This document shows positions 36,995 through 54,690 of a stretch of 64,000 nucleotides of DNA, one piece after another. Location: positions 16,171 to 80,170 of the forward strand of contig CAMXQE010000007.1 in the NCBI GenBank assembly GCA_947246015.1. Direction: 5' to 3'. Positions within the stretch are counted from its first letter, which is position 1; every line of letters begins with the position of its first letter. The position numbers were made by a program, and so were the translations under genes. The notes below the pieces were generated by a model. That model was given only the letters and a program-made list of their open reading frames with translations, did not search any database and was not told the DNA's origin. Source of the DNA: an uncultured Lachnospiraceae bacterium. GTDB lineage: Bacteria > Bacillota > Clostridia > Lachnospirales > Lachnospiraceae.

Positions 36995-37052
36995 GGCAAC
37001 TGCGTTGAAAAAAAGAACTATATGAAAAGTAGGAAGAGCTCAGAGAAAGGAG
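36995..37052 (+). promoter_or_regulatory. Conserved promoter-like motif, copy 1 (upstream of nrdG)
   Basis: GGCAACTG-N12-GAACTATAT-N3-AAGTAGGA.GAGC-N5-GAAAGGAG; 43/58 ungapped identity with 40343-40400. Confidence 0.7.
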
Positions 37053-37099
37053 GTGCACTTATCAGGGAAGAGAATGTAGTCTGATAACGGAAAGGAGGG

Positions 37100-37582
37100 T
37101 TGGGCATGAATCATACAATAGAATGTGCGGGCTGGCTGGAGAACAGTTGTGATGACGGACCGGGAATGAGAAGCGTCCTGTTTTTACAGGGGTGCAGTAA
37201 GAATTGTAGCGGATGTCATAATTCGGGAATTAAGGAACATGGAAAAGGAACAGAGATGGAAATTGATGCATTAATCAATTTTATTGAGTCAAAATGCTGC
37301 AACGGAAAGATTACAATTTCAGGAGGTGAGCCGTTAGAGCAGATGGACAGCCTGGCTGTACTGCTGGAGAAGCTGAAGGTCAAAGGATATAATATCTGCG
37401 TATATACAGGATGGGAATTGGAAAAAGTGCCGGAAAAGATTTTAAAACTGGTGGATTATATAAAAACAGGCAGTTTTATCATTAATTTGAGGAACTCTTA
37501 TATGCAATATGCCGGTTCGTCAAATCAACATATGTTTGCTGTTAATAATGGTAAGATCAAAGAGATGAGCTTACTTGCATAG
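37100..37582 (+). CDS. nrdG: Anaerobic RNR activating radical-SAM enzyme (ATG alternative at 37106)
   Basis: DGPGMRSVLFLQGCSKNCSGCHN (CxxxCxxC), ISGGEP, YTGW, GSSNQ. Confidence 0.9.
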   Translation: MGMNHTIECAGWLENSCDDGPGMRSVLFLQGCSKNCSGCHNSGIKEHGKGTEMEIDALINFIESKCCNGKITISGGEPLEQMDSLAVLLEKLKVKGYNICVYTGWELEKVPEKILKLVDYIKTGSFIINLRNSYMQYAGSSNQHMFAVNNGKIKEMSLLA

Positions 37583-37593
37583 CATGGAAAGGA

Positions 37594-39276
37594 ATGGTAA
37601 TGATTATGAGTATGGACAGAGCAACAGACCTGGCAAATAGAAAAAGGAATACAGCGGGTGTGGTTTCAGAAGACGGTCAGAGATATAGAAAAAAGTATAT
37701 ATTGAATCATATAGTGCCTGAAAAAAATGCAGAAAAGCATAATAGCCGGATGTGTCATATCCATGATTTGGAATGTTACGATATTACATATAACTGTATA
37801 GGGATATCTGTAAAGGATTTGGTTGGGAACAAGAGCAGAAGCTTCCGTAATATGCTCCGGGCTTTGTACAGAGCTATTGTGGAACTGGCAAATATCCAGT
37901 CAGGAGGAATTGGTTTCATAAATTTTGATTCTGATATTGCGTTATATATCGGAAATGAGAGTGATGCAGAAATTGTGGAAGCTCTTCATGAGTTGTTTCT
38001 GGATCTTAATACAAGTACAAGAAAAGGCTGTGAGAATCCATATGTAACGCTGAACTTCGGGCTGGATACAAGTGTTAACGGACGCAGGGCCGGCTTTTTA
38101 TTACTTGATGCATACGAAAAGGGGGATGAAAGGGGGAATCCGTTTATATTTCCCAACCTGGTATTTAAGATGAAGAGTGGGACTAATTTGGAAAGAAATA
38201 CAGCAAACTATGATTTGTATTGCAGGGCATTAAGTGTGACGGCAAAAAGAATGGTGCCGACCTACTTTAACTGTGACAGTATCAGCAATGCAGAATATAT
38301 TGCGGAAACAATCGGGATTATGGGATGCAGGACAAGAGTGGCTTCCAACGTAAATGGGAAAGAGGGGGTGCTGAACAGGGGAAATGTTGCATGTGTGACC
38401 CTGAATTTGGTTCAGATGGCATATCAGGCAAGAGGCGATATGGATGTTTTCTATTCTATATTAGATGAAAATCTGGAAGATGCAAAAGAAGTACTGTTGC
38501 ATAGGCTCAGCATTTTATGTGAGCGGGGGTTGTTTGGGGAATATTATGATAAAAGATATTATCAGGGAGCAGAAAAAAAGGACGTATATGAAATGTTGAA
38601 AAATGGGACGCTTGCTATCGGTTTTATTGGTCTTTGGGATGCCATAGGAACATTAATGGGATGTGAAATAGATTCTGCGGATATTATGAATCAGCATTTC
38701 GATACTGCCTATGGAGTCATCAGTCATATGAGGGATTATACGGATAAGGCAGCAAAGAAGGAACATTTGAATATATCGCTGCTTGCGACAGCGGCGGAAG
38801 GTGTCACAGGGAATTTCGCTCAGTATGACAGCTTAAATCTTGGGAAAGATTTTACAGCATGTAAAAAAGGGTTTTATACAAATTCCTTCCATGTTCCTGT
38901 TAATCTGCATATCAATTACAAAGATAAAATTCAGTTGGAGGGAAAATTTCACAGATTGTGCAATGGCGGCTCCATTACTTATGTTGAGTTAAAAGAGATG
39001 CCCGGAAACAATGTGGAGGCTGTCAGGGAAGTCGTGGAATATGCGTATCATAATGATTGTAATTATATTGGCATTAATTTCCCGATGGATAACTGTATGG
39101 AATGCGGCTGTACAGGAAGGATTATTGGTCAGTGCCCATGCTGTAAATCTGATAAAATCAGAAGATTGAGGAGGGTATCAGGATATCTTTCAGAAGAAAA
39201 CAGCTTTACGCCAGGAAAGAGAAAAGAACTGGGTGAGAGAACTTGCCATATGACAGTGAACTTTACAGGGGAATAA
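37594..39276 (+). CDS. nrdD: Class III (anaerobic) ribonucleoside-triphosphate reductase without ATP-cone
   Basis: HIHDL, YNC, QSGG, FPNLVF, MGCRT, YTNSFH, CMECG..CPCC zinc site, RVSGY glycyl-radical loop. Confidence 0.88.
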   Translation: MVMIMSMDRATDLANRKRNTAGVVSEDGQRYRKKYILNHIVPEKNAEKHNSRMCHIHDLECYDITYNCIGISVKDLVGNKSRSFRNMLRALYRAIVELANIQSGGIGFINFDSDIALYIGNESDAEIVEALHELFLDLNTSTRKGCENPYVTLNFGLDTSVNGRRAGFLLLDAYEKGDERGNPFIFPNLVFKMKSGTNLERNTANYDLYCRALSVTAKRMVPTYFNCDSISNAEYIAETIGIMGCRTRVASNVNGKEGVLNRGNVACVTLNLVQMAYQARGDMDVFYSILDENLEDAKEVLLHRLSILCERGLFGEYYDKRYYQGAEKKDVYEMLKNGTLAIGFIGLWDAIGTLMGCEIDSADIMNQHFDTAYGVISHMRDYTDKAAKKEHLNISLLATAAEGVTGNFAQYDSLNLGKDFTACKKGFYTNSFHVPVNLHINYKDKIQLEGKFHRLCNGGSITYVELKEMPGNNVEAVREVVEYAYHNDCNYIGINFPMDNCMECGCTGRIIGQCPCCKSDKIRRLRRVSGYLSEENSFTPGKRKELGERTCHMTVNFTGE

Positions 39277-39301
39277 GCAGGAGGAAAGGAGGATGATTCA
39301 G

Positions 39302-39417
39302 ATTACTGCTCACGGATTATGCCGCTTCGTTAAGTGTCACAGTACTTTGATGCTTTGCGGGGTGACGCCGTAAGCAGTAATTTATGGAATCTATGGAATC
39401 TATGGAATCTATGGAAC
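39302..39417. repeat. 80-bp hairpin element followed by a 9-bp tandem repeat
   Basis: ATTACTGCTCACGG...CCGTAAGCAGTAAT (13/14 inverted match), then (TATGGAATC)x3 plus a partial copy. Confidence 0.65.
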
Positions 39418-39430
39418 ATGGAAATTTTTG

Positions 39431-39594
39431 TTGAAAAGATTGTATGGATTTGATATAATAAAACTCATAAATATGAACAAATTGTTAACAAGACATTTTT
39501 GGGGTGAAAAAAGGTAATTGTCAGAATATTCTGTGAATTACACGTAAAAATGGGTCTTGGAACGCACTGTTTATGGGGCTTTTCAAGCCGTACC
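39431..39594 (+). promoter_or_regulatory. CRISPR leader 1 with sigma-A promoter
   Basis: TTGAAA-17-TATAAT with extended TG (39431-39459); AT-rich; highly similar to leader 2. Confidence 0.85.
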
Positions 39595-39930
39595 GTAGAA
39601 ATGAAGGAAGCCCGTATGAGGGCATTGAAACAAGACTCCTTCCAGTTAATAGGAGCTACTTCTGTTGGGTAGAAATGAAGGAAGCCCGTATGAGGGCATT
39701 GAAACACTCCTAGCGTCAACGATAACCGACTTATCACTGGTCGGTAGAAATGAAGGAAGCCCGTATGAGGGCATTGAAACACAGTAACATTATGCTGTAC
39801 CACAACAGGTTCTTCATTGGTAGAAATGAAGGAAGCCCATATGAGGGCATTGAAACAGTGTAAATCTTCCAGTTGTACCCGAATAATTCGGGAGTAGAAA
39901 TGAAGGAAGCCCGCCAAAGGGCATTAGTTA
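39595..39930 (+). CRISPR. CRISPR array 1: 5 repeats (37 bp), 4 spacers (37, 38, 39, 37 nt)
   Basis: GTAGAAATGAAGGAAGCCCGTATGAGGGCATTGAAAC at 39595, 39669, 39744, 39820 (1 SNP) and a degenerate copy at 39894; GCCC/GGGC stem and ATTGAAAC 3' handle. Confidence 0.97.
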
Positions 39931-40342
39931 TAAATTACAAAATTCTTAGGAATAGGATTTTATTTGTCTTGCATGGTTTGTCTGTTATATGCCTGGTTAC
40001 ATTTGAATCAAAACAAGTTGGTGAGGATATATCTTCCTGAACCGTTTCTGTGTCTGTTTGAGCGGCTTTGTTATGATAAGGCATATATGTCTGCTGTAAT
40101 ATCAAAGAGAACAGATAGGCTATTTATTCCATGATGGTTCGCATTGAGAACGATATGCCGGTGCAGACTAAAAATCCGGAAAGTATTTTCCACCGATAAA
40201 TATTCTGTTTTTATTTTAGGCTCTTTATGGCTGCTGCCATGAGGGGCTTTTTGCGTTGGCTTTATCTGAGCATAGTCACAGGAAAACAGTGTATGGAAAG
40301 ATGTTTTGCTAAAAAATTTTTTTAAAATTTTTTTAGATAATT

Positions 40343-40400
40343 GGCAACTGACGAAAAAAAAGGAACTGTATAGTAAGTAGGAGGAGCGAATGGAAAGGAG
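40343..40400 (+). promoter_or_regulatory. Conserved promoter-like motif, copy 2
   Basis: GGCAACTG-N12-GAACTGTAT-N3-AAGTAGGA.GAGC-N5-GAAAGGAG. Confidence 0.7.
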
Positions 40401-40467
40401 CGCACCTGATGAGAGGAAACGGTAAAAATGGATGAAAAACAAAATGAAAGTCAGGAGGCAGTTATTT

Positions 40468-41283
40468 ATGGAAAATAAAAAAAATTATGGAACAGATGTT
40501 GCAGCGGCAAGAAAAATATATGAAACAAAGGTTGGATTGGAAGCGTTTGAAAGGGCCGGAAATAATCCGCAGTTAAAAGGCATTGTACATGAAGTATTGT
40601 ATAAAGATGCGCAGACGGTTAATCCGGTTAATTTATTCAATGGTACAAAAGGAGTATTGTCGAAATCGACAACCGCAGTAAGAGATGATGTATTGCTGAT
40701 GAATGGAGGAAAGGTACTTGGAAGAAGCCAGTTAAAAGATACCGCCGGTTCCATTTCCAAGACGGTAAAACAGGCTGCCGATGGAAAATATGCCGGAACC
40801 AGGCTGATGGGGACAAATGAAACGGTTCAGGCATATGAGAAAGCAGTGGAAAAATTGTCTGCGAAAGGAATATCTGTTTCGCAGAAAATGACTTCTACCG
40901 GTATTTCATCAGCAGATACAAGCAGAATCGCTGTAGAAACGATAGGAGGAAAGCTGGCGGCTAAATCGCTGGCAAAGGTGGCGGGAAGTTCCGGTGTGGC
41001 AGGCGGTGTGATTTCCGGAGGAATAGAGACTGTCTGTGCAGGGATGGATTTACTTGAGGGGAATATTGATGGCGGAGAATTTGCCGGCAGAGTGGCAAAA
41101 GAAACGATTGGAGGAGGAATTTCGGCAGCAGGGGGAAGCGTGGCGGCAACGGCAGTGTCTGCGTGTACGGCATCTGTTTTGGCAGCAACAGCGGCTCCGG
41201 TTTGGGTTCCGGCGGCAGTCGGTATCGGTGCGGCCGTTGTAGTAGGTTCTCTTATAAAAGATATTTGGGATGCAGTCTTTTGA
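40468..41283 (+). CDS. Hypothetical protein with Gly/Ala-rich hydrophobic C-terminus (ORF open from 40432)
   Basis: RBS AGGAGG before ATG 40468; E..D..QLK pattern in the N-half; GxxxG glycine-zipper helices and terminal TM APVWVPAAVGIGAAVVVGSLI. Confidence 0.75.
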   Translation: MENKKNYGTDVAAARKIYETKVGLEAFERAGNNPQLKGIVHEVLYKDAQTVNPVNLFNGTKGVLSKSTTAVRDDVLLMNGGKVLGRSQLKDTAGSISKTVKQAADGKYAGTRLMGTNETVQAYEKAVEKLSAKGISVSQKMTSTGISSADTSRIAVETIGGKLAAKSLAKVAGSSGVAGGVISGGIETVCAGMDLLEGNIDGGEFAGRVAKETIGGGISAAGGSVAATAVSACTASVLAATAAPVWVPAAVGIGAAVVVGSLIKDIWDAVF

Positions 41284-41395: not shown

Positions 41396-43309
41396 GTGGA
41401 CACACAGGATAAAAATTATCTGTTATTTGTTCCCAGCCGTTTGACAGCCAATCCGAAATCAATTTGCTATAAAGTGGAAGGGAGGGAAACAGAATATGCC
41501 GGGATGCAGACGAATGAAGCTGTTACCAAATATCTGGTAGATTATTTGTATGAAAAAGGCGGGAAGCTGGATAAGATTATCATGTTGTGTACGGAAGAAG
41601 TGCAATATGAGGGGCTTCCTGTGATAGAAGGGCGTACTACGCTGGAATATTATAAGGATGCCATATGCGGATTTCTTGCCGGGGATGAAAAATACAGTGA
41701 GGACTATTCTGATACAGAGGCATTGTTTGAAATAGTGCCATATTCAGCTTCAGATTATGATGTAAGCGAGATTAAGAAGCCTTTGGATGAAGTGCTTAAG
41801 ATTACAGAGAACAAAGAAAAGGCTTTTAGTGAACATCTGTATGTGGATTTTACCGGAGGACCGAGAAGCGCTGCTTTGACACTGATATTCACCTGCAGGA
41901 TGCTTCAGCTAAATGAAGTTGCAGTGGAAAAGATTCTATACAGCAACATTCATACAGAAGGGCAGAAACTGGCCGGAAAGATAGAGGAATGCACAAAGGT
42001 CTATAATGTTTTTGCCATTTTGGAGGCAAAGGAAGCGCTTGTGCATGGAGACAGAAGTAAAATGCTGGAGTATGCAGAGAAATCGGGCGATGAAGATATG
42101 AAAAAAACTTTTCAGGAGTATGATGAAATCTCTGCGAAAAGGGAAATGGCAAACCAGACCAATCAATTGGCAGATGTAATTCTGGAATCGCAGGGGGTTA
42201 TTGCCTCAGCGGATAAGATTGCCAATTTGGAGAATCATCTGGCAGCAGAGCTGTTTTCAAAAGGAATCGAGAATCAGGTAAAAGACAGCAGGAATATCGT
42301 TGAAAACCCCAGATATCATAAGCTGACGTATATCGAAGAACATTTGAAAAAAAAGAGATATGATAAAGTAATCAGTTTTTTTCGTGAAAATATCATGGAA
42401 AGTCTGATTGAGTTTCAAATCATAAAAGGGGGATGGAACAGGGAACTGAATAAAAAGGTGGTGGTAAATGAACTGATGGGAGTTTACTGCTATTATGAGA
42501 CACCTGAAAGCAGTAAATCCGATAAAAAAAACAAGGATGCAAAAAGGACTTTTATGGATGCGGTACGGGATTATATAAAATTGCTTAATGAATATCCGGA
42601 CAGAGACCCATATGATGTTTTGAAGGAAAGGAACCAGTGGTTCTATGATATACGCGAACATATGGACTGGACATCTGAACGGGGGTTTACGCATAATGGC
42701 AAAAGCAGGCGCATTTGCAATGAGAAGCTGTTTCCTTATCTGGAAGCCGAAAACGGAACAGGTATGAAAGCAGGCGAACTGATAGAGAAGTATCAGAAAA
42801 TGGAGCAGGTTTATACAGGCTATGGATTTCCGTTCGCATGTACATATGGCAATACGTGGTTTTTTGACGCATATGAGGATTTATACAAAAAGAATATGAA
42901 CTGCGGTGCAAGAAGTCTGCAGAAATATTTTCAGCACACTGCAGACGGCAGGATGCAAAAAGCGCTTGCATGTTTTCCAAAGGAAAGATTTACGTATGAA
43001 ACACTGATTCAGGCGCTGCAAAAGGAACAGTATCAGAAAATGCTATATGTTCTTTTCCCGTTTGAGTTAAATAAAAGAAGCATTTGTTCCGATGTGATGA
43101 CAGAAGAAAAATGGGAAGAATTTATTTATGATTTTGTACGCTCATTTTATAATGTGAAACAGGTAAGGAACGGACTTGCCCATGGAGGCAGTCTGAAGGG
43201 GGATGATGTGGAGAGAGCCGTCAGGACGGTAGAAAGGGTACTCTGTCAGATAAGGGAAATGGAAAATGAAAAGCCTGCTGCAGGTATAAAAACAAAGGGG
43301 AGGAGGTGA
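41396..43309 (+). CDS. CARF-HEPN ancillary ribonuclease (Csx1/Csm6-like, TM1812-type CARF)
   Basis: CARF motif YVDFTGGPRS; C-terminal HEPN RNGLAH (RxxxxH); extended -10 TGGTATAAT upstream. Confidence 0.82.
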   Translation: MDTQDKNYLLFVPSRLTANPKSICYKVEGRETEYAGMQTNEAVTKYLVDYLYEKGGKLDKIIMLCTEEVQYEGLPVIEGRTTLEYYKDAICGFLAGDEKYSEDYSDTEALFEIVPYSASDYDVSEIKKPLDEVLKITENKEKAFSEHLYVDFTGGPRSAALTLIFTCRMLQLNEVAVEKILYSNIHTEGQKLAGKIEECTKVYNVFAILEAKEALVHGDRSKMLEYAEKSGDEDMKKTFQEYDEISAKREMANQTNQLADVILESQGVIASADKIANLENHLAAELFSKGIENQVKDSRNIVENPRYHKLTYIEEHLKKKRYDKVISFFRENIMESLIEFQIIKGGWNRELNKKVVVNELMGVYCYYETPESSKSDKKNKDAKRTFMDAVRDYIKLLNEYPDRDPYDVLKERNQWFYDIREHMDWTSERGFTHNGKSRRICNEKLFPYLEAENGTGMKAGELIEKYQKMEQVYTGYGFPFACTYGNTWFFDAYEDLYKKNMNCGARSLQKYFQHTADGRMQKALACFPKERFTYETLIQALQKEQYQKMLYVLFPFELNKRSICSDVMTEEKWEEFIYDFVRSFYNVKQVRNGLAHGGSLKGDDVERAVRTVERVLCQIREMENEKPAAGIKTKGRR

Positions 43310-43315: not shown

Positions 43316-43675
43316 ATAAAAAAATATTTTATAAATTTTACAAATCATCCATCTGTCAAATGGGAAGAAAAGCAGAGAATGGCAGCATTGGAATACGGAG
43401 AGATTATTGATGTTCCTTTTCCAACGGTAGACCCGCAGGGAGATGAGGGTTATATTGAAGGATTGGCAGAACGTTATCTGCGGCGGATTTTACAGCTTCA
43501 TCCGTATGTGGTTTTATGTCAGGGAGAATTTTGTCTGGCATACCGGATAATAACAAAACTGCATGAAAGCGGGATTATGGTTTTGGCGGCATGCAGTGAG
43601 CGCGTTGTGAAAGAGGCCGGACAGAAAAAAGAGGTAATGTTTGCATTTTCGCAGTTCCGCAGATACTGCAGGTGA
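43316..43675 (+). CDS. Small CRISPR-associated CARF-fold protein, ring-nuclease-like (Csx20/Csx15-type)
   Basis: FINFTNHPS..W...Q..AA..YGEIIDVPFP.VDP...QGEF...SER...F..FRRY; the conserved N-terminus lies upstream of the first ATG (43379). Confidence 0.65.
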   Translation: MKKYFINFTNHPSVKWEEKQRMAALEYGEIIDVPFPTVDPQGDEGYIEGLAERYLRRILQLHPYVVLCQGEFCLAYRIITKLHESGIMVLAACSERVVKEAGQKKEVMFAFSQFRRYCR

Positions 43676-46254: not shown

Positions 46255-46255
46255 A

Positions 46256-48520
46256 ATGGGAATTTTATATGGTAGGTTAAAAATTGAACTTATGTCAGAC
46301 CTTTGCGCAGGGTCCGGTTATTCTTACGCAGGAGTAATTGATTCTGATGTATCTTATGATGAGTACGGACTTCCTTATATACCGGCCCGCCGCCTGAAAG
46401 GCTGTATGAGGGAAGCAGCGGAACTGGTTTGTCCTGATATGACGGAAAAGCTGTTCGGTAAGCCGGGAGATGATGGGACAAAAGGGATAGTTCTGTGGAA
46501 TGCCTATATAGAAGAGTACGATTCGGTGACGGAAGAACTTGGGAAACTGCATCATGAAGCGTACAGGGAGGCGGCTTACCTGTCACAGCAGAATATACTG
46601 AAGCTGTATACAGGTATCAGGGCGCAGACAAAATTGTGTCCGGAGACGGGAACTGCACAGCAGAATACTCTGAGATATACCAGGGTAGTGGGACAATATA
46701 ATCCGTTGAAAGAGAAGGTTCCTCTTTGCTTTTATGCAAAGCTGGAAATTCCTGATATTTATAAAGAAGTATTGGAACGGATTGTTAAAGCGGTAAGAAA
46801 TATCGGAATGAACCGGAACCGGGGATTAGGAAGTGTGCGCTGTAGTCTGAGTAATTTAAGAATAGCAGAAGAACCGGAACTGAGGACGGGTAAAAGGACA
46901 GAAGGGGAAGAAAGAGTCTGTCTTACTTATGTTCTTTGCAACAGGGAACCTTTGTTGATGAGCAGTGATAATGTAGAAGTTTCGGATTCTTATATCAGTG
47001 GAAAGAGTGTCCTCGGAAAACTGGCGGGAGCTTATCTTCGCGGGGAAGGGAGAAGTGCGGAAGGAGAGGAATTCAGGCAATTGTTTTTGGACGGAAATAC
47101 TCTTTTTACCAATGCATATCCGACCATTCTGCCCGAAAAGGGCAGGGAATTGGCAGCACAGTGGCCGGATTATGCTCCGGCGCCGCTTTATCTGAACCGG
47201 TTGAAAAAAACAGGCGTTTTGGTAAATCTGCTTGGAGAAAATAAGGAGATTCCACAGGGCAGAAGAGACATATATGATACAGGAGGAGGAAATCTGCCGA
47301 AAAAACTGAAAACACACTATGTTTATGAGAGCAGCCCTAATATGTATGATGTGATAGAGCCGCAGCGGGAGATTCTTTACCATAACAGTAAACGGGAACT
47401 TTTGTATTCACTGGAGGCAGTAAAAGAAGGACAGTATTTTAAAGGGCAGATTTATACCAGCCGGAAATATGCAAATCTGCTTAGGGGGCTGTTAGAACAT
47501 ACGCATCTTTCTTTTGGAAAGTCCAAGACAGCCCAGTATGGGATTTGTGAGCTGGCAGCCGGGATAACGGCGGAGACTGTCGAAGAAGAGACAATCTGTG
47601 CAGAAGAGGGCGAACGGATAGCAGTTGTTATGGATAGCGATGCGGTATTCATACATGGAGCTGACGGATATACCATAAAATTTGAGGAGATAAAAGAGCT
47701 GGTCGGAGGGCAGCTGGGGATTCCCTATGATAAAGAAGCAGATGAAAACAGTATGCTTCAGACAAAGGAAATAACGGGCTATAATACGAAATGGAATCTG
47801 CGAAGACCCGGAATGCCTGCGGTGAAGGCAGGCAGTGTACTGGTATATACCATACCGGCCGGACAAAGCTGGCAGAAGAACATATGGCCGGGGCGGACAT
47901 TTGTAGGAGAGAGGAATCTGGAGGGATATGGGCAGGTACGGATTGTAAAGTGCCGTGATATGTCTTATGCTGCGGAAAGCACGAGAGCGGAAAGAACGGG
48001 AGCAGAGCAGGATAAGCAGGCGGAGTGTCTGCATTTTCATAGCTGCATGTCCTTTCTTCTGCAGATTTTGACAGAACAGCTTTTGGAGCGTTTGGTTTTT
48101 CTATATACAGGGAGAGGAACAGAACTGAATCTGACGGCATCTACGGTAGGAAGGCTGAGTCTGATGCTTCAGGAAAGCCTGAATGAGTACAGAGGTGATG
48201 CAGAGAAAGCTTTTAAAGATTTTTGCAGCCGGGTGGAATCTATAAAAAGGAAGAAAGAGAAGGAAGAAGCATTCCGCTTGCTGTATTCCGTTTTGCTGAA
48301 GGAGAGAGGGGAAGAAAAGAGGGAGGCGGAAGGAGAGTACAGGCTGGATATTCAGAAAATGACTGAAGATAAAGGCGATTGGAAGCTGAAAGAAATAGGG
48401 AGTCTCTTAAAATTGTATTCTACTGAGGAGGAATACAGAGAAAGGCTGACAGATATATGGGGTGTGTACATGGAGAATATACTTACCTTTCATAAATATC
48501 TGAAAAAACATGAAGGCTGA
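46256..48520 (+). CDS. RAMP fusion Cas7-Cas5(Csx10)-Cas11-like
   Basis: G-loops IGMNRNRGLG, FGKSKTAQYG and VGERNLEGYG; PYIPARRLKG; helical C-terminal ~170 aa. Confidence 0.82.
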   Translation: MGILYGRLKIELMSDLCAGSGYSYAGVIDSDVSYDEYGLPYIPARRLKGCMREAAELVCPDMTEKLFGKPGDDGTKGIVLWNAYIEEYDSVTEELGKLHHEAYREAAYLSQQNILKLYTGIRAQTKLCPETGTAQQNTLRYTRVVGQYNPLKEKVPLCFYAKLEIPDIYKEVLERIVKAVRNIGMNRNRGLGSVRCSLSNLRIAEEPELRTGKRTEGEERVCLTYVLCNREPLLMSSDNVEVSDSYISGKSVLGKLAGAYLRGEGRSAEGEEFRQLFLDGNTLFTNAYPTILPEKGRELAAQWPDYAPAPLYLNRLKKTGVLVNLLGENKEIPQGRRDIYDTGGGNLPKKLKTHYVYESSPNMYDVIEPQREILYHNSKRELLYSLEAVKEGQYFKGQIYTSRKYANLLRGLLEHTHLSFGKSKTAQYGICELAAGITAETVEEETICAEEGERIAVVMDSDAVFIHGADGYTIKFEEIKELVGGQLGIPYDKEADENSMLQTKEITGYNTKWNLRRPGMPAVKAGSVLVYTIPAGQSWQKNIWPGRTFVGERNLEGYGQVRIVKCRDMSYAAESTRAERTGAEQDKQAECLHFHSCMSFLLQILTEQLLERLVFLYTGRGTELNLTASTVGRLSLMLQESLNEYRGDAEKAFKDFCSRVESIKRKKEKEEAFRLLYSVLLKERGEEKREAEGEYRLDIQKMTEDKGDWKLKEIGSLLKLYSTEEEYRERLTDIWGVYMENILTFHKYLKKHEG

Positions 48521-48584
48521 CAGGGTATTTTAGAAACATCCGCCGGAACCGTGCGGAAAGGAAGAATGGAAACAGGAGAGATAT

Positions 48585-49871
48585 ATGCGGAATAATACAG
48601 GGAAAAAAATATATTATCGGATAGTTTTTCAGACTGCATCTGCCCTGTCGGCAGGCAGTGGGGAAAACCGGTATTCAGACAGTGATTTCATAAGGAATTC
48701 AGTGGGAGAGCCTTTCATTCCGGGCAGCTCACTGGCAGGTATTTACCGTTCTTTTTTTACTGAGAATGATGCTGAGTATTACTTCGGGGCAGACAAAAAG
48801 GAAGAAAGAAAACAGGAAGAAGATGGGCCGGGGAGCAGGGTACTGGTGTATGATGCAAAGCTGCAGGATACAGAAGGAGGGATTCCTTACCGAAGGGTTA
48901 TCAGAGACTGTGTGGCACTGGATGAATGGAAAACAGGAAAGGATGGGCATAAGTTTGACTTTGAGACGGTTGAGCCGGGAGCTTGTTTTGTAACCTATTT
49001 AGAACAGAACTGCGGGCCGGGGGACAGAGATATTGGGAAAGAGCTGGCTGAGATTTGGAGAGAGCGCAGGATTTACATTGGCCGTAAGACGATGCGGGGT
49101 CTTGGAAGCATTGGAAAGGCTATGATTTACCGGCGGAGCTTTGATTTGACGGAGCAGTCGGAGCTGGATGCATGGCTTGACTTTGATATGTATCAGGAGA
49201 AGGACTGGACAGATGCAGAGTTTGAGGCAGAGGACAGACAGGAAACAGGACGGGGCAGGATGATTTCCATAGAGTTTAATCTAAAGCAGAAGGGAGGAAT
49301 TTCAATCCGCCGTTATACGACAAAGGTGACGACCGGAGTGATTCAGCCGGATGCAGAGCAGCTTACCTGTATTACCGGAAAGGATGGACAGGAAGTGCCG
49401 TATATTCCGGGGAGTTCCTGGGCAGGTGCGTTCCGCCATCATATGGAACGGTTAATTCCGGGATGTACGCGGGGATGTTTTGGGGATTGTGAAAAGCGTT
49501 CTGCCATTCGGTTTGGCGAAAGCTTTATCAGCGGGGCGTCCGCGAAGGTACTGACCAGAAATGCGGTGGACCGTTTTACCGGAGGAGTGATTGAGACGGC
49601 ATTATTTACTGAGAAAATGTGGTATGGAGGAACGACAGTGCTGCGCATAGAGCTTCCCGCAGAAGTGGATATGGAAGTATGGCAGGCACTGGCAGCTTCT
49701 TTGGCGGATTTGCATGCGGGGCTTCTTTCCGTAGGCGGTCTGACGGCTGTGGGAAGAGGTATTTTTGAAGGAGAGACTCTGTTTATTGACCATGAACCGG
49801 TTCTTCCGGGAGATGGGATGTATGAACGGATTTTAAAAAAGCTGGAGGAGATGCGTGTATGGAAAAAATAG
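48585..49871 (+). CDS. Tandem Cas7-Cas7 (Csm3-like) fusion
   Basis: Two RAMP units: PFIPGSSLAG/IGRKTMRGLG and PYIPGSSWAG/VGGLTAVGRG. Confidence 0.88.
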   Translation: MRNNTGKKIYYRIVFQTASALSAGSGENRYSDSDFIRNSVGEPFIPGSSLAGIYRSFFTENDAEYYFGADKKEERKQEEDGPGSRVLVYDAKLQDTEGGIPYRRVIRDCVALDEWKTGKDGHKFDFETVEPGACFVTYLEQNCGPGDRDIGKELAEIWRERRIYIGRKTMRGLGSIGKAMIYRRSFDLTEQSELDAWLDFDMYQEKDWTDAEFEAEDRQETGRGRMISIEFNLKQKGGISIRRYTTKVTTGVIQPDAEQLTCITGKDGQEVPYIPGSSWAGAFRHHMERLIPGCTRGCFGDCEKRSAIRFGESFISGASAKVLTRNAVDRFTGGVIETALFTEKMWYGGTTVLRIELPAEVDMEVWQALAASLADLHAGLLSVGGLTAVGRGIFEGETLFIDHEPVLPGDGMYERILKKLEEMRVWKK

Positions 49872-50389
49872 AGACAATGGAACAATTCTGGCAATGTGCA
49901 GATACGATGGCAGAAGGTTTCCTCTTTGCCATGTTTACAGATGAAATTGTGTGGGAGAGCTGGCCGTTAACTTCCGAAAAACGGGAAAATTTCCGGAAAA
50001 AGGAGGGGAAGCTTTTGGATGTGCGAATCTTTAATAAGGAAAAAGAGGTGCGCATGTTCCGCGGGGATATCGGAAGAAAGCTTCAGGGCAGAAGTATCGA
50101 TGACGGGAAGGATATACTGAAGCAGCAGGAGTATTTTGACGAGGAACAGTATCTGGATATTGACGATAAGCGTTCGGAAGAGGTATTTGCCAGAGAGAAA
50201 AAGGTAGTTGCCACCGGAGGCGGCTGTTATTCCCTGCCATTGCCGGGGTTCGTGGATGCAAAGGTAAGGCTCCGCAATTATCTTGGCTATTACGAAGAAA
50301 CAGGCCAGGTATATGTAAGGGACTGGCGGCTTATGGGGTTATTTCAGGAAAGGCCCGGGCAGGTGCAGAGCCAGAGGAGGAGAAAATGA
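49859..50389 (+). CDS. csx19: Csx19
   Basis: LLDVRIFN..KE, RNYLGYY..G..YV.DWRL.G; position between cas7 genes is typical of III-D. Confidence 0.8.
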   Translation: MEKIETMEQFWQCADTMAEGFLFAMFTDEIVWESWPLTSEKRENFRKKEGKLLDVRIFNKEKEVRMFRGDIGRKLQGRSIDDGKDILKQQEYFDEEQYLDIDDKRSEEVFAREKKVVATGGGCYSLPLPGFVDAKVRLRNYLGYYEETGQVYVRDWRLMGLFQERPGQVQSQRRRK

Positions 50390-52323
50390 AGGTAAATTAT
50401 AAAAGGAAGAAAGATGTAAAATTTGTCAATCCATATACATTTGTACCGGTTTCAAAAAAGGAACCTGTAAAGAGAAGTACGCTTGAACCGGCAGAATCCG
50501 GCAAGCTGCATACAGGAGTTCTCCGGTGCAGGCTTTATGTCCGGACGCCGCTTGGAATACCTGATGCGGAGCGGGAAAAAACGGATGGGAGCGGACATAA
50601 GAAATATCCCTTTTTTTCCTATGAGGAGAATGGAAAACCGGTTCCGGTAATTCCGGGAAGCTCTTTAAGGGGAAGCATTCGTTCTGTATTTGAAACAGCT
50701 GCGGATTCCTGCTTTTCGACACTACGGGAGAATACAGGGTTATCCAGGCGTGTGGACAACCGAAAGGCTTATAAGCCTGGAATCCTTAAATGGGAGAAGG
50801 AAGGCTGGCATCTTTATCAGGCGGAACGTTATCTGTTGGCAGTGAAACCGGAAGAGGATGACCGGAAGAGGAGCTATACAGAATATAGAGAACTGCCTGC
50901 GGATGCATATGTCCATATGATTCGGAGAGAAGATGGACGGAGAGCTGCCATGAACAGGGAGAGAGAAGAACTGCGGTTCGGAGATTTGGTGGAATTCCAG
51001 CCTTACACACAGGGGAACGGTGTTTATAAGAAAAACGGTTTTCAGGTTTGGAAAGGCGTTGCCAGAAGCGTGAGAAAGAAACAGGAGGGAACAGGGCATC
51101 CGGCAGGCAGGGAGTATGGGCTGGTCTATATAGGAGAGACTTTTGCGAAAAAAAAGCATGGGGAAAGTATCTTTGTGATGGGGAAGGAAGTAAAGGAATT
51201 GACGGCGGGACAGGTGAAAAAGGCATATGAGGGCTTGCTTGAGAGCCTGGAGATATACCGGAATCCTGCTGTAAACCGCAGTGAGGGACACAGTGGATAT
51301 AAGGATTTTGAACATGCGAAAAAGGAGAGAGGAATCCCGGTCTGGTATTCTGCGGAAGAAAAGAAGCTTTCACTGGCCTCAATAGGAAGGACTTTTTATA
51401 ACACCAGTCTGAATGAGCTGGCAGGAGAAAGAAAACCCTGCATAAACAGGAAAAAGCTTTGTGAAGCCTGTACTCTTTTTGGTATGGCAGGAGAAGAAAG
51501 TCTGGGAAGCAGGATTCGGATTACGGATGCAAAGGCTCAGGAAGGGTATCAGTTAAGATGGGAGACATTAAAAATACTGGGACAGCCCCGTTATTCTTAT
51601 CTGCCCTTTTATGCCAAATCTGCTTCGGGCATTCCGAATTCTTATGATGACCCAATGGTTGAGATAGCGGGAAGAAAATTTTACTGGCATAACATGGAAG
51701 CGGCAAAGGACAGCAGGATTTATGCGGCTGGGGAGAAAAATCAAATGAATAATACGCTGGAGCTTGTGATGCCGGGGGCGGAATTTTCTTTCGAAGTCTA
51801 TTATGACGGTATTACGCAGGAACAGCTTCAGAAGCTTATGTGGTGTATTCATTTCGGAGAAAATAAAAAGGATGGGAATCTGTGCGGCAGGCTTGGTCAT
51901 GGGAAGCCGCTCGGGCTTGGAAGCGTCAAAATGGTGATAGAAGAAAAGGAAGAGAGAATTTTTGAGGAAGGAGTTTACAGATGGGAACGGGAAGTATCGC
52001 TTGGGGAAGGGGCAGAGCCTGAATTAAAAAATAAGAAGGAATTAAAGCGGGTGATGGATTTCCGCGGGCCGGGTGGAAAAATACCGATTCAATATCCATA
52101 TATCTGTGATGAATATGGAAAGGAGCTTTCGGAGTCCGGTAAGAATGAGAATGCAAGGCATGTGTGGTATTTGAAGAACAAAGAGTCCAAAAGGGAAAAA
52201 GATGACCCTTCAGAGCTTTTGCCTGATATTATGGCAAAAAATCAGACACTGCATCCTTATCAGAAGATGCAGGGGAACAGTCAATACAATAATTATGGCA
52301 ACAATGGATTAAAAAGGAGATAG
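50386..52323 (+). CDS. Cas7 with large insertion (TIGR03986-like RAMP)
   Basis: FVNPYTFVP, IPGSSLRGSIRSVFE, LCEACTLFG, GRKFYWH, LGHGKPLGLGS. Confidence 0.9.
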   Translation: MKVNYKRKKDVKFVNPYTFVPVSKKEPVKRSTLEPAESGKLHTGVLRCRLYVRTPLGIPDAEREKTDGSGHKKYPFFSYEENGKPVPVIPGSSLRGSIRSVFETAADSCFSTLRENTGLSRRVDNRKAYKPGILKWEKEGWHLYQAERYLLAVKPEEDDRKRSYTEYRELPADAYVHMIRREDGRRAAMNREREELRFGDLVEFQPYTQGNGVYKKNGFQVWKGVARSVRKKQEGTGHPAGREYGLVYIGETFAKKKHGESIFVMGKEVKELTAGQVKKAYEGLLESLEIYRNPAVNRSEGHSGYKDFEHAKKERGIPVWYSAEEKKLSLASIGRTFYNTSLNELAGERKPCINRKKLCEACTLFGMAGEESLGSRIRITDAKAQEGYQLRWETLKILGQPRYSYLPFYAKSASGIPNSYDDPMVEIAGRKFYWHNMEAAKDSRIYAAGEKNQMNNTLELVMPGAEFSFEVYYDGITQEQLQKLMWCIHFGENKKDGNLCGRLGHGKPLGLGSVKMVIEEKEERIFEEGVYRWEREVSLGEGAEPELKNKKELKRVMDFRGPGGKIPIQYPYICDEYGKELSESGKNENARHVWYLKNKESKREKDDPSELLPDIMAKNQTLHPYQKMQGNSQYNNYGNNGLKRR

Positions 52324-52326
52324 TTT

Positions 52327-52932
52327 ATGAAAAAGATGTATATTACGAATGTTTCTCTTCAGGGAAAGGGTGAACTGCTGAAGTTTCTGTATGAACCGAA
52401 CGGTTTTGAAATGAAAAATAACCGGGAGACCAGTTTCCCAATCATACCGGTGATTGCATCCCGGCAGGAGAAAGGGGATGAGATTAAGGTGCTGGCGATT
52501 CGGTCCAATCATGCGGACACGCCGGATAACTATGCAGTATTTCTGCAGGAACTGAGTACACTCGGAATTTCGGAAGAACAGGTAAAAGAGATAAATATAG
52601 CGGAAAACCAAAGCAGTTCAGAGAGCCTGAAGTTGTTGATGACAGTGCTGGAAGAAATTCCGGAGAAATCTTTGGTCTATGGGGACATTACTTACGGAAC
52701 AAAGCCTATGGCGGCAATTTTGCTGTATGCAATGAGTTTTGCGGAGAAAATGAGAAATTGTGAGGTGGACGGAATCTATTATGGGGAAATCCGGAGAGAG
52801 GATAAAAAAGTAACGGGAGCATTGCTCTATGATTTAACAGTGCTAAAACTGTTAGGCGATTTAATTGATGAGATGAAGGATATGGGAATCCGTGGAATGA
52901 GGGAAGTGATTCATGGATTGATAGGGGAGTAA
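52327..52932 (+). CDS. Stand-alone CARF protein (TM1812 family)
   Basis: VYGDITYGTKP CARF motif, FPIIPVI, IYYG, LYDLT; no effector domain. Confidence 0.8.
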   Translation: MKKMYITNVSLQGKGELLKFLYEPNGFEMKNNRETSFPIIPVIASRQEKGDEIKVLAIRSNHADTPDNYAVFLQELSTLGISEEQVKEINIAENQSSSESLKLLMTVLEEIPEKSLVYGDITYGTKPMAAILLYAMSFAEKMRNCEVDGIYYGEIRREDKKVTGALLYDLTVLKLLGDLIDEMKDMGIRGMREVIHGLIGE

Positions 52933-52947
52933 GACGGAGGATAAGCG

Positions 52948-54141
52948 ATGGATGAAACATACAATTTGGAAAGAAAGCAACTTGCTGAGGAATTTGAGGC
53001 TGCGCACGGTGTTTTCCTGGAAGAACTGAGACATATGCCGACAAATAACAAAGAAGAGAGACGGAAATTTTTTGACAGGTATGACCGAAAAGAGAACTTT
53101 GATATTGAGTTAATGGAAGTGTACCGTCATGGAGCTTATTATAAGATAAAAGCGCGTTTGGAGAAATCTTCGGAAAGTTTTCATGCAGATTCGAATATGG
53201 CTGTTCTGGGGAGAAAGGAAATAGATACGCTTGTGTTTGTGGAGGCCAGAAATGAGGCAATAGAAACTTATGTGGGAGTGAATAAAAAGGGAGACGTTTA
53301 TGGGTTTGTCGCATGCGTAGGGACGCTGTATAAGCAGAGGGCCGGTAAGGCGTCAGGAGAAAATAAATTGCAAAGCAAGGGGATATCAGACCAGGGGATA
53401 CCAAAACGGAATTTGTCGAGAGATTTCAGGCTGATAAAGATGGCTAAAAGAATATTGGAAAAAAGTTTCTACAGGATTTCTAAGGAAGAGGCGTTGGAAC
53501 GGGCTATCAAAGAGGTTTCATGCAACTATACAAAGAAGGAGATGGAGCTGGTGCGGGCACTGTTTTTTCCGGAGAAAATGGTGATTTCCATGGATGTGCC
53601 GCTGGGAACAGAGGATGGGAATACAGGCGATACTTTGGGAACACGACAGGCAGATAAGGAAGATTATTTTGAGTCAGTACTTGACAGGGAATCGGGGAGT
53701 TCTTTGTTAGTGGCTTTTTGCCAAAAGATTGAAGAAAGATGGGAAATTATTACATCTGCCAAGGGTCTGAATGAGCAGGAGTTTTTTAGGGCATTTTTTA
53801 CACAGGGGATTTTAAAAGAACTGAAGCTGGATAAAAGTGAGGAACCATGGAAGCCGTATATAGAAGAGCCTGCGGGAGACGAAGAATTTTATCAGTTACT
53901 GAAACCAAGGGGGGATTTTCTATATGACAAAATGTTTTATAAGAAATATTTGTGGGAGGCTTTCGTAAAAGAACCTGGAGATTTTTATAGTGTTTACGCA
54001 TGGCTTCTGCGAAAGGATTTTGAGTTTACGGACAAGGTGTTAGCTGATGTGATGGATAAGGACAAAACGGTTATTTCAAAGAAAAAGAAAGATTATTTGA
54101 AATGGATGAAGGCGATTTATGATTATTACCGAAATAGTTAG
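52948..54141 (+). CDS. Hypothetical protein resembling a sigma-70-family (group 3-like) sigma factor
   Basis: Region 2-like EAIETY..KKG..YGFVACVGTLYKQR..GIPKR; region 3.2-like VISMDVPLGTEDG.TGDTLG; region 4.2 HTH-like FTDKVLADVMDKDKTVISKKKKDYLK. Confidence 0.6.
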   Translation: MDETYNLERKQLAEEFEAAHGVFLEELRHMPTNNKEERRKFFDRYDRKENFDIELMEVYRHGAYYKIKARLEKSSESFHADSNMAVLGRKEIDTLVFVEARNEAIETYVGVNKKGDVYGFVACVGTLYKQRAGKASGENKLQSKGISDQGIPKRNLSRDFRLIKMAKRILEKSFYRISKEEALERAIKEVSCNYTKKEMELVRALFFPEKMVISMDVPLGTEDGNTGDTLGTRQADKEDYFESVLDRESGSSLLVAFCQKIEERWEIITSAKGLNEQEFFRAFFTQGILKELKLDKSEEPWKPYIEEPAGDEEFYQLLKPRGDFLYDKMFYKKYLWEAFVKEPGDFYSVYAWLLRKDFEFTDKVLADVMDKDKTVISKKKKDYLKWMKAIYDYYRNS

Positions 54142-54161
54142 TTTCAGAAAAGTTTATGCAA

Positions 54162-54192
54162 TCAGAACCATCCGTTGGACGGGTGGTTCTGA
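54162..54192 (+). terminator. Stem-loop after the cas operon
   Basis: TCAGAACCATCCGT-TGG-ACGGGTGGTTCTGA; no strong T-tract. Confidence 0.5.
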
Positions 54193-54272
54193 AGATGAAA
54201 AAGAGATGAAAAATTATAGTCGGGACGGAGTGGGAATTCATGTGTTTGATATGTTTATGTGGTAAATTAATA

Positions 54273-54436
54273 TTGAAAAGATTATGGTGATTTGATATAA
54301 TAACATTTGTAAATATGAACAAATTGTTAACAAGGCAATTTTGTGGTAAAAAAAGGTAATTGTCAGAATATTCTGTGAATTACACGTAAAAATGGGTTCG
54401 GGAATGCCCTGTTTATCAGGCTTTTCAGACCATACC
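54273..54436 (+). promoter_or_regulatory. CRISPR leader 2 with sigma-A promoter
   Basis: TTGAAA-17-TATAAT with extended TG (54273-54301); paralog of leader 1. Confidence 0.85.
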
Positions 54437-54690
54437 GTAGAAATGAGATAAGCCCGTATGAGGGCATTGAAACCTATTTCCCCTCGCACATTTTGAGCTT
54501 TGATTATGGTAGAAATGAGATAAGCCCGTATGAGGGCATTGAAACAGGTCGTTTACCGGGTATCTCCAGCTTCTTACGCTGTAGAAATGAGATAAGCCCG
54601 TATGAGGGCATTGAAACACTACTCCCTTTACTGTATTGGGATAACCTGGATGTGTAAAAATGAGATAAGCCCGTATGAGGGCATTGAAAA
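54437..54690 (+). CRISPR. CRISPR array 2: 4 repeats (37 bp), 3 spacers (35, 35, 36 nt)
   Basis: GTAGAAATGAGATAAGCCCGTATGAGGGCATTGAAAC at 54437, 54509, 54581 and a 2-SNP terminal copy at 54654. Confidence 0.97.

What the first reader, a model, noticed from the sequence alone, without database searches (positions are those of the whole stretch)
36995..54690. Candidate new system: type III-D CRISPR wired to a CARF + sigma-like factor with its own local regulon (nrdGD and a membrane protein)
Seen: the cas operon ends with a CARF-only gene and then a sigma-70-like gene. The two non-cas units in the island (nrdG-nrdD and the Gly-rich membrane gene) each carry the same 58-bp upstream motif, whereas the cas operon and both arrays have ordinary sigma-A-type promoters. 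Established: Cas10 makes cyclic oligoadenylates that CARF domains sense, and sigma release downstream of type III CRISPR is known for CalpL-CalpT-CalpS and type III-E Csx29-Csx30-CASP-sigma, both protease-based. Inference: no protease is evident here, so cOA-bound CARF may directly release or activate the sigma factor, which would then transcribe an RNR and a membrane effector.
Basis: partly seen in the sequence, partly recalled or inferred. Interest (0 to 1): 0.93.

Follow-up and report, generated by a model that had tools for sequence, protein, structure and literature searches.

The report
CRISPR-linked CARF sensor with private sigma factor
A type III-D CRISPR island carries a small alarm-molecule sensor (CARF) always paired with a very divergent sigma factor, and a private promoter found only twice in the genome sits in front of an extra anaerobic ribonucleotide reductase and a membrane protein, which suggests, without proving it, a protease-free route from CRISPR signalling to gene expression.

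Summary
Window 41396-54141 is a type III-D operon: CARF-HEPN, Csx20, Cas6, Cas10d, Cas7-Cas5, Cas7, Csx19, Cas7. It ends in a stand-alone CARF (52327-52932) and a 397-aa protein (52948-54141).

The 397-aa protein has no Pfam hit. It is a divergent sigma-70 relative by profile-profile comparison (E 4e-7, regions 1.2 to 3.2), PDB profile search, structure alignment and language-model neighbours.

CARF and the sigma-like gene are adjacent in 10 of 10 loci examined, at different places within type III-D operons and once with no cas gene within 10 kb.

The 58-bp motif (43/58 identical) reads as a promoter: GCAACT, 17 nt, TATATr. A matrix built only from four sites in other islands scores the two window sites at 38-41 bits; the next best site in the 3.9-Mb genome scores 20.

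The motif recurs in four related islands, upstream of nrdGD, the membrane gene, or a csx20-cas6-CARF-sigma operon. It is missing upstream of homologous membrane and nrdGD genes outside such islands.

Three steps remain inference: that cOA-bound CARF controls the sigma, that this sigma reads the motif, and what the reductase and membrane protein do.

Earlier notes of this scan describe similar CARF-sigma pairs on other DNA. I found no paper describing the module.

The parts
36995..37052 (+). Promoter-like motif, copy 1, upstream of nrdG. It reads -35-like GCAACT (36996-37001), a 17-nt A-rich spacer, -10-like TATATG (37019-37024), then a conserved AAGTAGGA...GAAAGGAG leader. A terminator-like hairpin lies just upstream at 36960-36976.
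37100..37582 (+). nrdG, the activase of the anaerobic ribonucleotide reductase (radical SAM). The likely start is ATG 37106, after a GGAAAGGAGGG ribosome-binding site.
   Evidence: (Fer4_12 2e-24, Radical_SAM)
37594..39276 (+). nrdD, a short class III ribonucleotide reductase (560 aa, no ATP cone). The RVSGY glycyl-radical motif and the CxxC...CxxC zinc site are present. It is one of three NrdD homologs in the genome.
39422..39930 (+). Leader with a sigma-A-type promoter (TTGAAA-17-TATAAT, 39431-39459), then CRISPR array 1: five 37-nt repeats from 39595, the last degenerate.
40343..40400 (+). Promoter-like motif, copy 2, upstream of the membrane gene. A terminator-like hairpin precedes it at 40218-40249.
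40468..41283 (+). Gly/Ala-rich membrane protein, 271 aa, of a widespread uncharacterised Bacillota family; some members carry Pfam MamC. It is 90%, 81% and 71% identical in related islands.
41396..43309 (+). CARF-HEPN RNase of the Csm6/Csx1 type, with an R-x4-H motif at residue 591. It is the first gene of the cas operon, behind an extended -10 promoter (TGgTATAAT, 41319-41327).
43379..43675 (+). Csx20 homolog. The family has been shown to hold cA4 ring nucleases.
   Evidence: PADLOC Csx20 1e-27; PMC12409355
43720..44655 (+). Cas6
44680..46254 (+). Cas10d without an HD domain. The conserved IDGNNMG and AGDE motifs stand in place of GGDD.
46223..52323 (+). Type III-D backbone: Cas7-Cas5 (Csx10) fusion 46223-48520, Cas7 48585-49871, Csx19 49859-50389, large Cas7 (TIGR03986) 50386-52323.
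52327..52932 (+). Stand-alone CARF, 201 aa, with no effector domain. The D-I-T-x-G-T-K-P motif is invariant in six homologs.
52948..54141 (+). Divergent sigma-70-family protein, 397 aa. Regions 1.2 to 3.2 are recognisable. The C-terminal helix-turn-helix domain carries an insert. The gene starts 15 nt after the CARF stop.
54264..54690 (+). Leader (87% identical to the leader of array 1), then CRISPR array 2: four repeats from 54437.

Best explanation
This is a mobile type III-D CRISPR-Cas island. Besides the usual cOA branch (Cas10d, then a CARF-HEPN RNase, reset by the Csx20 ring nuclease) it carries a two-gene transcription switch: a stand-alone CARF sensor and a divergent sigma-70-family factor.

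The most likely working is as follows. Target RNA activates Cas10d, which makes cOA, probably cA4. cOA binds the CARF dimer, and the dimer changes its hold on the sigma-like protein, either releasing or activating it, without any proteolysis. The sigma-like protein with core RNA polymerase then starts transcription at a private promoter (GCAACT, 17 nt, TATATr). In this genome that promoter exists only in front of nrdG-nrdD and the membrane-protein gene.

Shown here: the gene identities, the conserved CARF-sigma pairing, and the exclusiveness and conservation of the motif. Inferred: CARF-sigma contact, the direction of control, that this sigma reads this promoter, and the roles of the cargo. 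For the cargo I suggest a membrane-damaging or dormancy effector, and a feedback-insensitive reductase that changes dNTP supply.
For: Sigma identity. No Pfam, PADLOC or PHROG hit. hhalign of the family profile against the genome's own SigA and four other sigma-70 proteins gives Prob 92.8%, E 4e-7 over 191 columns, from 'YLKEIG..PLL' (region 1.2) to the 'SL..P..ED...LGD' linker (region 3.2). A profile search of PDB sequences lists SigA first (E 1.3e-3). The AF2 model (pLDDT 88.7) has S. aureus SigB as best VIA-align match (Z 5.5, 230 residues, model 17-393). Sigma-S, sigma-32, SigI6, ECF sigma-2 domains and a sigma-H sigma-4 domain follow. Foldseek's top rows are sigma chains, but at E about 0.5. 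The Atlas neighbours are 'Sigma-70 family' clusters at 0.96-0.97.

Pairing. A CARF2-type gene stands directly upstream of the sigma-like gene in 10 of 10 loci (window, L032, L001/L046, L006, L038, L053, L040, G007, G250, G022), with gaps of -4 to 22 nt. The pair sits at the end of the operon, between csx20 and cas10, after cas6, before cas6, or with no cas gene within 10 kb. The CARF signature D-x-T-x-G-x-K is invariant.

Motif. 43 of 58 positions match. Only two sites exist in the genome. Terminator-like hairpins precede both. It is conserved upstream of nrdG and of the membrane gene in L032, upstream of nrdG in L053, upstream of the membrane gene in L038, and upstream of csx20-cas6-CARF-sigma in L006. 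It is absent upstream of membrane-gene homologs in three non-CRISPR contexts and upstream of a short nrdGD in a fourth.

The ECF sigma next door is not conserved with the island. No other DNA-binding regulator is encoded in the island.
Against: No experiment or expression data exist, and no RNA run could be listed.

The islands that share the motif are related by descent: sigma-like identity is 43-76%, and CARF, Cas10 and the cargo genes are closer. Co-inheritance therefore explains part of the co-occurrence.

One related island (L001/L046, sigma 42%) and the distant loci (L040, G007, G250, G022) show no recognisable copy.

Region 4, which should read the -35 element, is supported only weakly (22 columns, E 0.009). 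The tryptophans of region 2.3/2.4 that help sigma-A melt the -10 element are replaced.

The -10-like TATATr could serve sigma-A together with an activator.

A stand-alone CARF could equally be a ring nuclease or a cOA sponge.

A simultaneously active CARF-HEPN RNase would work against a transcriptional output.
Confidence: 0.45

Rival explanations
1. The sigma-like protein drives the island's private promoters, but not under direct cOA control. The CARF-only protein would be a ring nuclease or cOA buffer, like Crn1, that happens to be co-transcribed. The sigma would serve only to express island cargo independently of host sigma factors.
For: Stand-alone CARF proteins of this size include ring nucleases such as Crn1 (PMC12409355). 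In L006 the motif precedes the operon that contains CARF and sigma, so the module may autoregulate without a signal.
Against: The island already has a Csx20 ring nuclease. CARF and the sigma-like gene stay adjacent and often overlap wherever the pair moves, including a locus with no cas gene within 10 kb. A general ring nuclease would not be expected to do this.
Confidence: 0.2
2. The motif is a promoter plus operator read by host factors, that is sigma-A with an activator or repressor, and is simply inherited with the nrdGD-membrane cargo. The CARF-sigma pair would act on other targets, or on none in cis.
For: The -10-like TATATr is close to the sigma-A consensus. The motif-bearing islands share ancestry. 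No motif was found in L046, L040 or the three family genomes that carry the pair.
Against: There is no TTGACA-like -35 and no TG extension at the right spacing. The motif is absent upstream of the same cargo genes outside CARF-sigma islands. It is placed before three different gene sets in different islands. Only two sites exist in a 3.9-Mb genome, which is unlike a host regulator's regulon.
Confidence: 0.2
3. The sigma-like protein is an effector and not a promoter-specific sigma. Released by cOA-bound CARF, it would occupy core RNA polymerase and shut down host and phage transcription, a form of abortive infection or dormancy.
For: The -10-melting residues are diverged and the sigma-4 domain is unusual. 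The protein evolves faster than its neighbours: 46% identity against 76-77% for CARF and Cas10 in L053, as expected for a protein in conflict with phage.
Against: This reading does not explain the conserved private promoter. The two readings are not exclusive.
Confidence: 0.1
4. The neighbouring ECF sigma (34885-35400), with its DUF4367 anti-sigma-like partner (35400-36815), reads the motif.
For: It lies directly upstream of nrdG. The motif contains GGAAC/AGAAC, which resembles an ECF -35 element.
Against: In L032 and L053 the flanks differ (gltB/gltD; a PDC-M09B gene and DUF697) and no ECF pair is present, yet the motif is.
Confidence: 0.03

Closest known systems
CalpL-CalpT-CalpS (type III-B; Rouillon et al. 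2023, as cited in PMC11229360)
   Same: A type III second messenger is converted into a transcriptional response through a dedicated sigma factor encoded in the CRISPR locus.
   Different: Calp uses a SAVED-Lon protease that cleaves an anti-sigma factor and so frees an ECF-like sigma. Here no protease, SAVED domain or separate anti-sigma was found. The sensor is a 201-aa CARF alone. The sigma has region 3 and is about 400 aa. A candidate target promoter and its cargo can be named.
Type III-E Cas7-11 / Csx29 (Craspase) / Csx30 / CASP-sigma (RpoE-like)
   Same: A sigma factor is the downstream output of a type III-derived system. Published phylogenies place III-E as a descendant of III-D (PMC12669027).
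   Different: Activation there is by RNA-triggered proteolysis of Csx30, with no cOA and no Cas10. Here Cas10d is present, with CARF proteins and a ring nuclease.
Csa3 and other CARF-wHTH transcription factors
   Same: A CARF domain would couple cOA to transcription without proteolysis.
   Different: Csa3 is a single CARF-wHTH protein that binds DNA itself. Here the CARF has no DNA-binding domain, and the partner is a separate sigma-like protein that would work through RNA polymerase.
DdvS-DdvA of Myxococcus xanthus (PMC11506125)
   Same: A dedicated sigma factor controls a defence island that contains a type III system.
   Different: That ECF sigma is held by a transmembrane anti-sigma and acts upstream of CRISPR and CBASS expression. 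It is not downstream of cOA.

Membership tests
Type III-D CRISPR-Cas | Cas10d-type large subunit, Csx10 (Cas5), Csx19 and several or fused Cas7 proteins | tested here: met
   PADLOC Cas10d 8e-84, Cas5_IIId 2e-101, Cas7_IIId 1e-82 and 4.5e-115; NCBIfam Csx19 6e-17 (above cut-off) and TIGR03986 2.5e-69 (above cut-off).
Type III-D CRISPR-Cas | Cyclase-competent Cas10 palm motif (GGDD or equivalent) | tested here: inconclusive
   AGDE/AGDD is invariant in seven homologs, together with IDGNNMG. The product cannot be told from sequence. A III-D2 Cas10 with a catalytic D-E pair makes SAM-AMP (PMC13294483). Here the CARF-HEPN, CARF and Csx20 genes argue for cA4.
Sigma-70 family | Regions 2 and 3 (core binding, -10 recognition, sigma-3 domain, 3.2 linker) | tested here: met
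   hhalign Prob 92.8%, E 4e-7, 191 columns from region 1.2 to 3.2. The PDB profile search lists SigA first. No Pfam model reaches E <= 0.1 in P0001 or any of the 65 homologs scanned.
Sigma-70 family | Region 4 helix-turn-helix that reads the -35 element | tested here: inconclusive
   A 22-column match at region 4.2, E 0.009, low probability. VIA-align matches model residues 258-397 to the sigma-H sigma-4 domain at Z 4.3, rmsd 2.7 over 67 residues.
Sigma-70 family | Binds core RNA polymerase and directs promoter-specific initiation | not testable with these tools
   Needs biochemistry.
CARF superfamily (CARF2, stand-alone) | Rossmann-like CARF domain with the conserved D-x-[ST]-x-x-x-[RK] ligand-site motif (motif recalled from my own knowledge of the CARF literature) | tested here: met
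   PADLOC CARF2--CARF 5e-57 over residues 1-189; Pfam CARF_Card1 4e-4, below cut-off. D120-I-T-Y-G-T-K126 is invariant in six homologs.
CalpL-CalpT-CalpS | SAVED-Lon protease and a cleavable anti-sigma factor | tested here: not met
   No Lon, SAVED or other protease domain in any island ORF by Pfam, NCBIfam or PADLOC.
Csa3-type CARF transcription factor | CARF fused to a winged helix-turn-helix domain | tested here: not met
   The CARF protein is 201 aa and the CARF model covers residues 1-189.
Class III ribonucleotide reductase NrdD/NrdG | NRDD core, C-terminal glycyl-radical motif, zinc cysteines, radical-SAM activase | tested here: met
   Pfam NRDD 9e-119 over the whole model. RRVSGY, CMEC and CPCC are present. 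NrdG hits Fer4_12 and Radical_SAM. There is no N-terminal ATP cone (560 aa, against open frames of 834 and 728 aa for the two other copies).
Csx20 ring nuclease | Sequence membership of the Csx20 family | tested here: met
   PADLOC Csx20 1e-27. NCBIfam CAS_Csx20 scores only 27 bits, below its cut-off of 70. Activity was not tested.

The most novel reading that the evidence does not exclude
A protease-free signalling route. The cOA-loaded stand-alone CARF dimer acts directly as a ligand-switched anti-sigma or co-sigma for a private sigma-70-like factor. That factor then transcribes a tiny island-encoded regulon, consisting of an ATP-cone-less anaerobic ribonucleotide reductase and a glycine-zipper membrane protein, as inducible immune outputs of a type III-D system.
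Probability: 0.35. Interest if true: 0.85.

Novelty: new variant of a known kind. Interest (0 to 1): 0.72.

Why it matters
Type III CRISPR signalling is known to reach transcription through proteases (Calp, Craspase) or through CARF-wHTH factors. A CARF that directly gates a sigma factor would be a third and simpler design.

This case is unusually testable, because the candidate promoter and its two target units are already in hand. In the known sigma routes (CalpS, CASP-sigma) the genes that the sigma switches on are, as far as I know, not well defined.

It would also give a first functional context to a widespread uncharacterised membrane-protein family. And it would explain why short nrdDG pairs sit in defence islands.

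As a compact ligand-sensor, sigma and promoter set, it could be useful as an orthogonal expression switch.

Tried and rejected
- Complex prediction of two CARF chains plus the sigma-like protein: no verdict. The score was 0.38 against 0.25 for one control. This is neither support nor evidence against binding.
- Sequencing runs: none was listed, and no RNA holder was listed, so no expression or start-site data could be obtained.
- Rfam at E <= 1 over 36000-56000: no match, so the conserved leader belongs to no known riboswitch or RNA family.
- Sigma-54 reading of TGGCAAC: rejected by eye. Copy 2 and the relatives lack the -12 GC element at the right spacing.
- NrdR-box reading: rejected by eye. 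There is only a partial half-site, no second box, and the same motif precedes a membrane gene.
- Small leader ORF after the conserved GGAAAGGAG: not conserved between copies or islands.
- Exact-pattern scans of genome contigs and metagenome contigs: only one true extra instance, L077, which is the L053 type. All other matches were chance A-rich matches or lay inside genes.
- Family-wide pattern scan of 400 genomes: matches at the level of the reversed-pattern control.
- Foldseek against PDB: no match at E <= 0.001, although the top rows are sigma chains.
- PDB sequence searches with the CARF profile and with the CARF-HEPN protein: nothing useful.
- PHROGs for the sigma-like, CARF and membrane proteins: no hits.
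- ORFs 36824-37084, 39465-39917 (-) and 40071-40442 (-): they overlap a repeat element, the array or intergenic DNA, and were treated as not real.

Full report
**1. What is there**

On the + strand the window holds, in order:
- an ECF sigma (34885-35400) and a DUF4367 anti-sigma-like gene (35400-36815)
- motif copy 1 (36995-37052)
- nrdG (37100/37106-37582) and nrdD (37594-39276)
- a CRISPR leader and array 1 (39422-39930)
- motif copy 2 (40343-40400)
- a Gly/Ala-rich membrane-protein gene (40468-41283)
- one long cas operon: CARF-HEPN (41396-43309), Csx20 (43379-43675), Cas6, Cas10d, a Cas7-Cas5/Csx10 fusion, Cas7, Csx19 and a large Cas7 (to 52323)
- a stand-alone CARF (52327-52932) and a 397-aa protein (52948-54141)
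- a second leader and array 2 (54264-54690)

The subtype call III-D rests on Cas10d, Csx10, Csx19 and TIGR03986 hits, two of them above NCBIfam cut-offs. Cas10d has no HD domain. It keeps IDGNNMG and an invariant AGDE/AGDD in place of GGDD. The CARF-HEPN RNase, the CARF-only protein and Csx20 make cA4 the likeliest messenger, since the Csx20 family degrades cA4 (PMC12409355). This is inference.

**2. The sigma-like gene**

Pfam, NCBIfam-style scans, PADLOC and PHROGs give nothing for the 397-aa protein. None of 66 homologs hits a sigma Pfam model.

Four other lines agree that it is a sigma-70 relative:
- A profile of 66 homologs aligned by hhalign to SigA and four other sigma-70 proteins of the same genome gives Prob 92.8%, E 4e-7 over 191 columns. 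The alignment runs from the region 1.2 signature, through 2.2-2.4 and the sigma-3 domain, to the 'SLD.P..ED...LGD' 3.2 linker.
- The same profile searched against PDB sequences lists SigA chains first (E 1.3e-3, 0.011, 0.029).
- With the deep alignment AlphaFold2 gives pLDDT 88.7. An all-against-representatives structural alignment puts S. aureus SigB first (Z 5.5, 230 residues aligned collinearly over model residues 17-393). Sigma-S, sigma-32, SigI6, ECF sigma-2 domains and a sigma-H sigma-4 domain follow. These Z-scores are modest for a helical protein and would not suffice alone.
- The nearest ESM-Atlas clusters are named 'Sigma-70 family RNA polymerase sigma factor' (0.96-0.97).

The weak point is the C-terminal domain. 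Only a 22-column helix-turn-helix match falls at the place of region 4.2. An insert conserved across the family (LKLD...KPY.EEPAGDE.FY) sits before it.

The family is small: 86 representatives at 50% identity among 1.8 billion proteins. It was found in 3 of 400 other genomes of the same family and in none of 398 scored genomes sampled across the class.

**3. The CARF-sigma pair**

I examined ten loci with a homolog, at 25-76% identity. In each, a CARF2-type gene of 200-211 aa stands immediately upstream. The pair as a unit takes different positions:
- last in the operon (window, L032, L001)
- between csx20 and cas10 (L038, L053)
- after cas6 and ahead of a second CARF-HEPN (L006)
- ahead of cas6-cas10d (G022)
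- after CARF-HEPN (G007)
- in a locus with no cas gene within 10 kb (L040)

This is the pattern expected of two proteins that work together. The CARF ligand-site motif D-I-T-x-G-T-K is invariant.

The sigma-like protein diverges faster than everything around it. In L053, for example, it is 46% identical, against 76% for CARF and 77% for Cas10.

A direct complex prediction gave no verdict and counts neither way.

**4. The motif**

The two window copies share 43 of 58 positions; the shuffled maximum is 34. Read as a promoter, each has GCAACT, a 17-nt spacer containing an A-tract, and TATATG (TGTATA in copy 2). A conserved start region follows (AAGTAGGA...AGC...GGAAAGGAG). Each copy lies 68-110 nt before its start codon and just after a terminator-like hairpin. 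Neither copy has a TTGACA-like -35 or a TG extension at the right spacing. The arrays and the cas operon, by contrast, have plain sigma-A-type elements.

Related islands carry the same element:
- L032 upstream of nrdG and again upstream of the membrane gene, with a weaker third copy
- L053 upstream of nrdG, where the membrane gene follows nrdD after 47 nt and so shares the unit
- L038 upstream of the membrane gene, with ACAACA in place of GCAACT and the same 17-nt spacing
- L006 upstream of a csx20-cas6-CARF-sigma operon

A weight matrix made only from the four L032, L053 and L038 sites scores the two window sites at 40.6 and 38.2 bits. Every other position of the 3.93-Mb genome, on both strands, scores 19.7 or less. 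The candidate regulon in this genome is therefore exactly these two units.

Controls point the same way. Homologs of the membrane gene in three non-CRISPR contexts lack the motif: Novisyntrophococcus fermenticellae at 82% identity, Caminicella sporogenes at 64%, and a metagenome scaffold. So does a short nrdGD pair next to a kinase gene.

The neighbouring ECF sigma is not part of the conserved island, because L032 and L053 have other flanks yet keep the motif. The same-genus genome G386 lacks the whole region between matE and about 58.5 kb.

**5. Limits**

- The motif-bearing islands are relatives, so shared descent accounts for some of the co-occurrence.
- One related island (L001/L046) and the distant loci show no recognisable copy. 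Either their promoters have diverged with their sigma, or the link is not general.
- Nothing shows that this sigma binds core polymerase or reads this promoter.
- Nothing shows that CARF touches the sigma, or in which direction cOA would act.
- The roles of the cargo are open. The NrdD is a third, short, ATP-cone-less copy with intact radical and zinc motifs. The membrane protein belongs to a large, well-conserved family of unknown function, often found among recombinases and defence-like genes.

**6. Comparison and novelty**

The closest known systems are CalpL-CalpT-CalpS and the type III-E Craspase-Csx30-CASP-sigma route, both protease-driven. Csa3-type CARF-wHTH factors are protease-free but bind DNA themselves. 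The island fails the defining features of all three: it has no SAVED-Lon, no CHAT or TPR protease, no separate anti-sigma, and no wHTH on the CARF.

I found no description of a CARF plus sigma-70-like module, or of nrdDG linked to type III loci, in the papers searched. That library is incomplete.

Earlier notes of this same scan report similar CARF-sigma pairs with private promoters on other genomes. They are unchecked AI notes, not independent evidence. They do fit the picture of a portable sensor-sigma switch, as does L040 here.

I class this as a new variant of a known kind, namely type III signalling to a dedicated sigma factor.

**7. Verdict**

I put about 0.85 on the sigma-70 relationship, 0.8 on a functional CARF-sigma pair, 0.75 on the motif being a promoter, and about 0.5 on this sigma reading it. 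The whole chain from cOA through CARF and the sigma to nrdGD and the membrane gene I put at 0.35-0.45.

Noticed in passing
window 36885-36987 (and, inverted, about 34400-34493): An interspersed repeat of about 100 nt with an internal hairpin lies directly upstream of motif copy 1. The same-genus genome G386 holds at least 15 copies on many contigs at 73-97% identity. It looks like a REP- or MITE-like element, or a terminator cassette.
   Followed up: partly
window 34885-36815: An ECF sigma and a DUF4367 anti-sigma-like gene lie next to the island. They are absent from the related islands and from G386, so they are probably separate cargo of the same variable region (about 34.4-58.3 kb).
   Followed up: partly
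L054:9505-16749: A short nrdG-nrdD pair (70% identical to the window's NrdD) is followed directly by a 1428-aa protein kinase-TPR gene and a thymidylate-kinase-like gene. A nucleotidyltransferase/HEPN pair and a group II intron lie nearby. This is a second case of ATP-cone-less nrdDG in a defence-like setting.
   Followed up: no
L040:6342-19150: A CARF-sigma pair with no cas gene within 10 kb. It is flanked by a 940-aa CAP-domain protein and followed by unknown genes of 53, 480, 602 and 998 aa, then VWA and PP2C genes. The 998-aa protein has a weak PD-T4-6 hit. The pair may control a different cassette here.
   Followed up: partly
window 54837-55358, and L003:11998-16582: A DUF6431 gene follows array 2. 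In the closest relative the same gene is followed by Csm6, Cas1, Cas2, a reverse transcriptase and AEP-TOTE. That adaptation module is missing from this island. The genome's only Cas1 hit is on another contig (C43).
   Followed up: partly
window 55879-57969 (-), L049:1-2944, L003:19267-20148: Leucine-rich-repeat and LRR-kinase genes recur next to the island and next to a membrane-gene homolog in another genome.
   Followed up: no
window 39381-39416: Four tandem copies of ATGGAATCT lie just upstream of the leader of array 1.
   Followed up: no
L053:351-1790: The gene upstream of nrdG in this related island matches the PADLOC candidate defence family PDC-M09B (E 8.5e-211).
   Followed up: no
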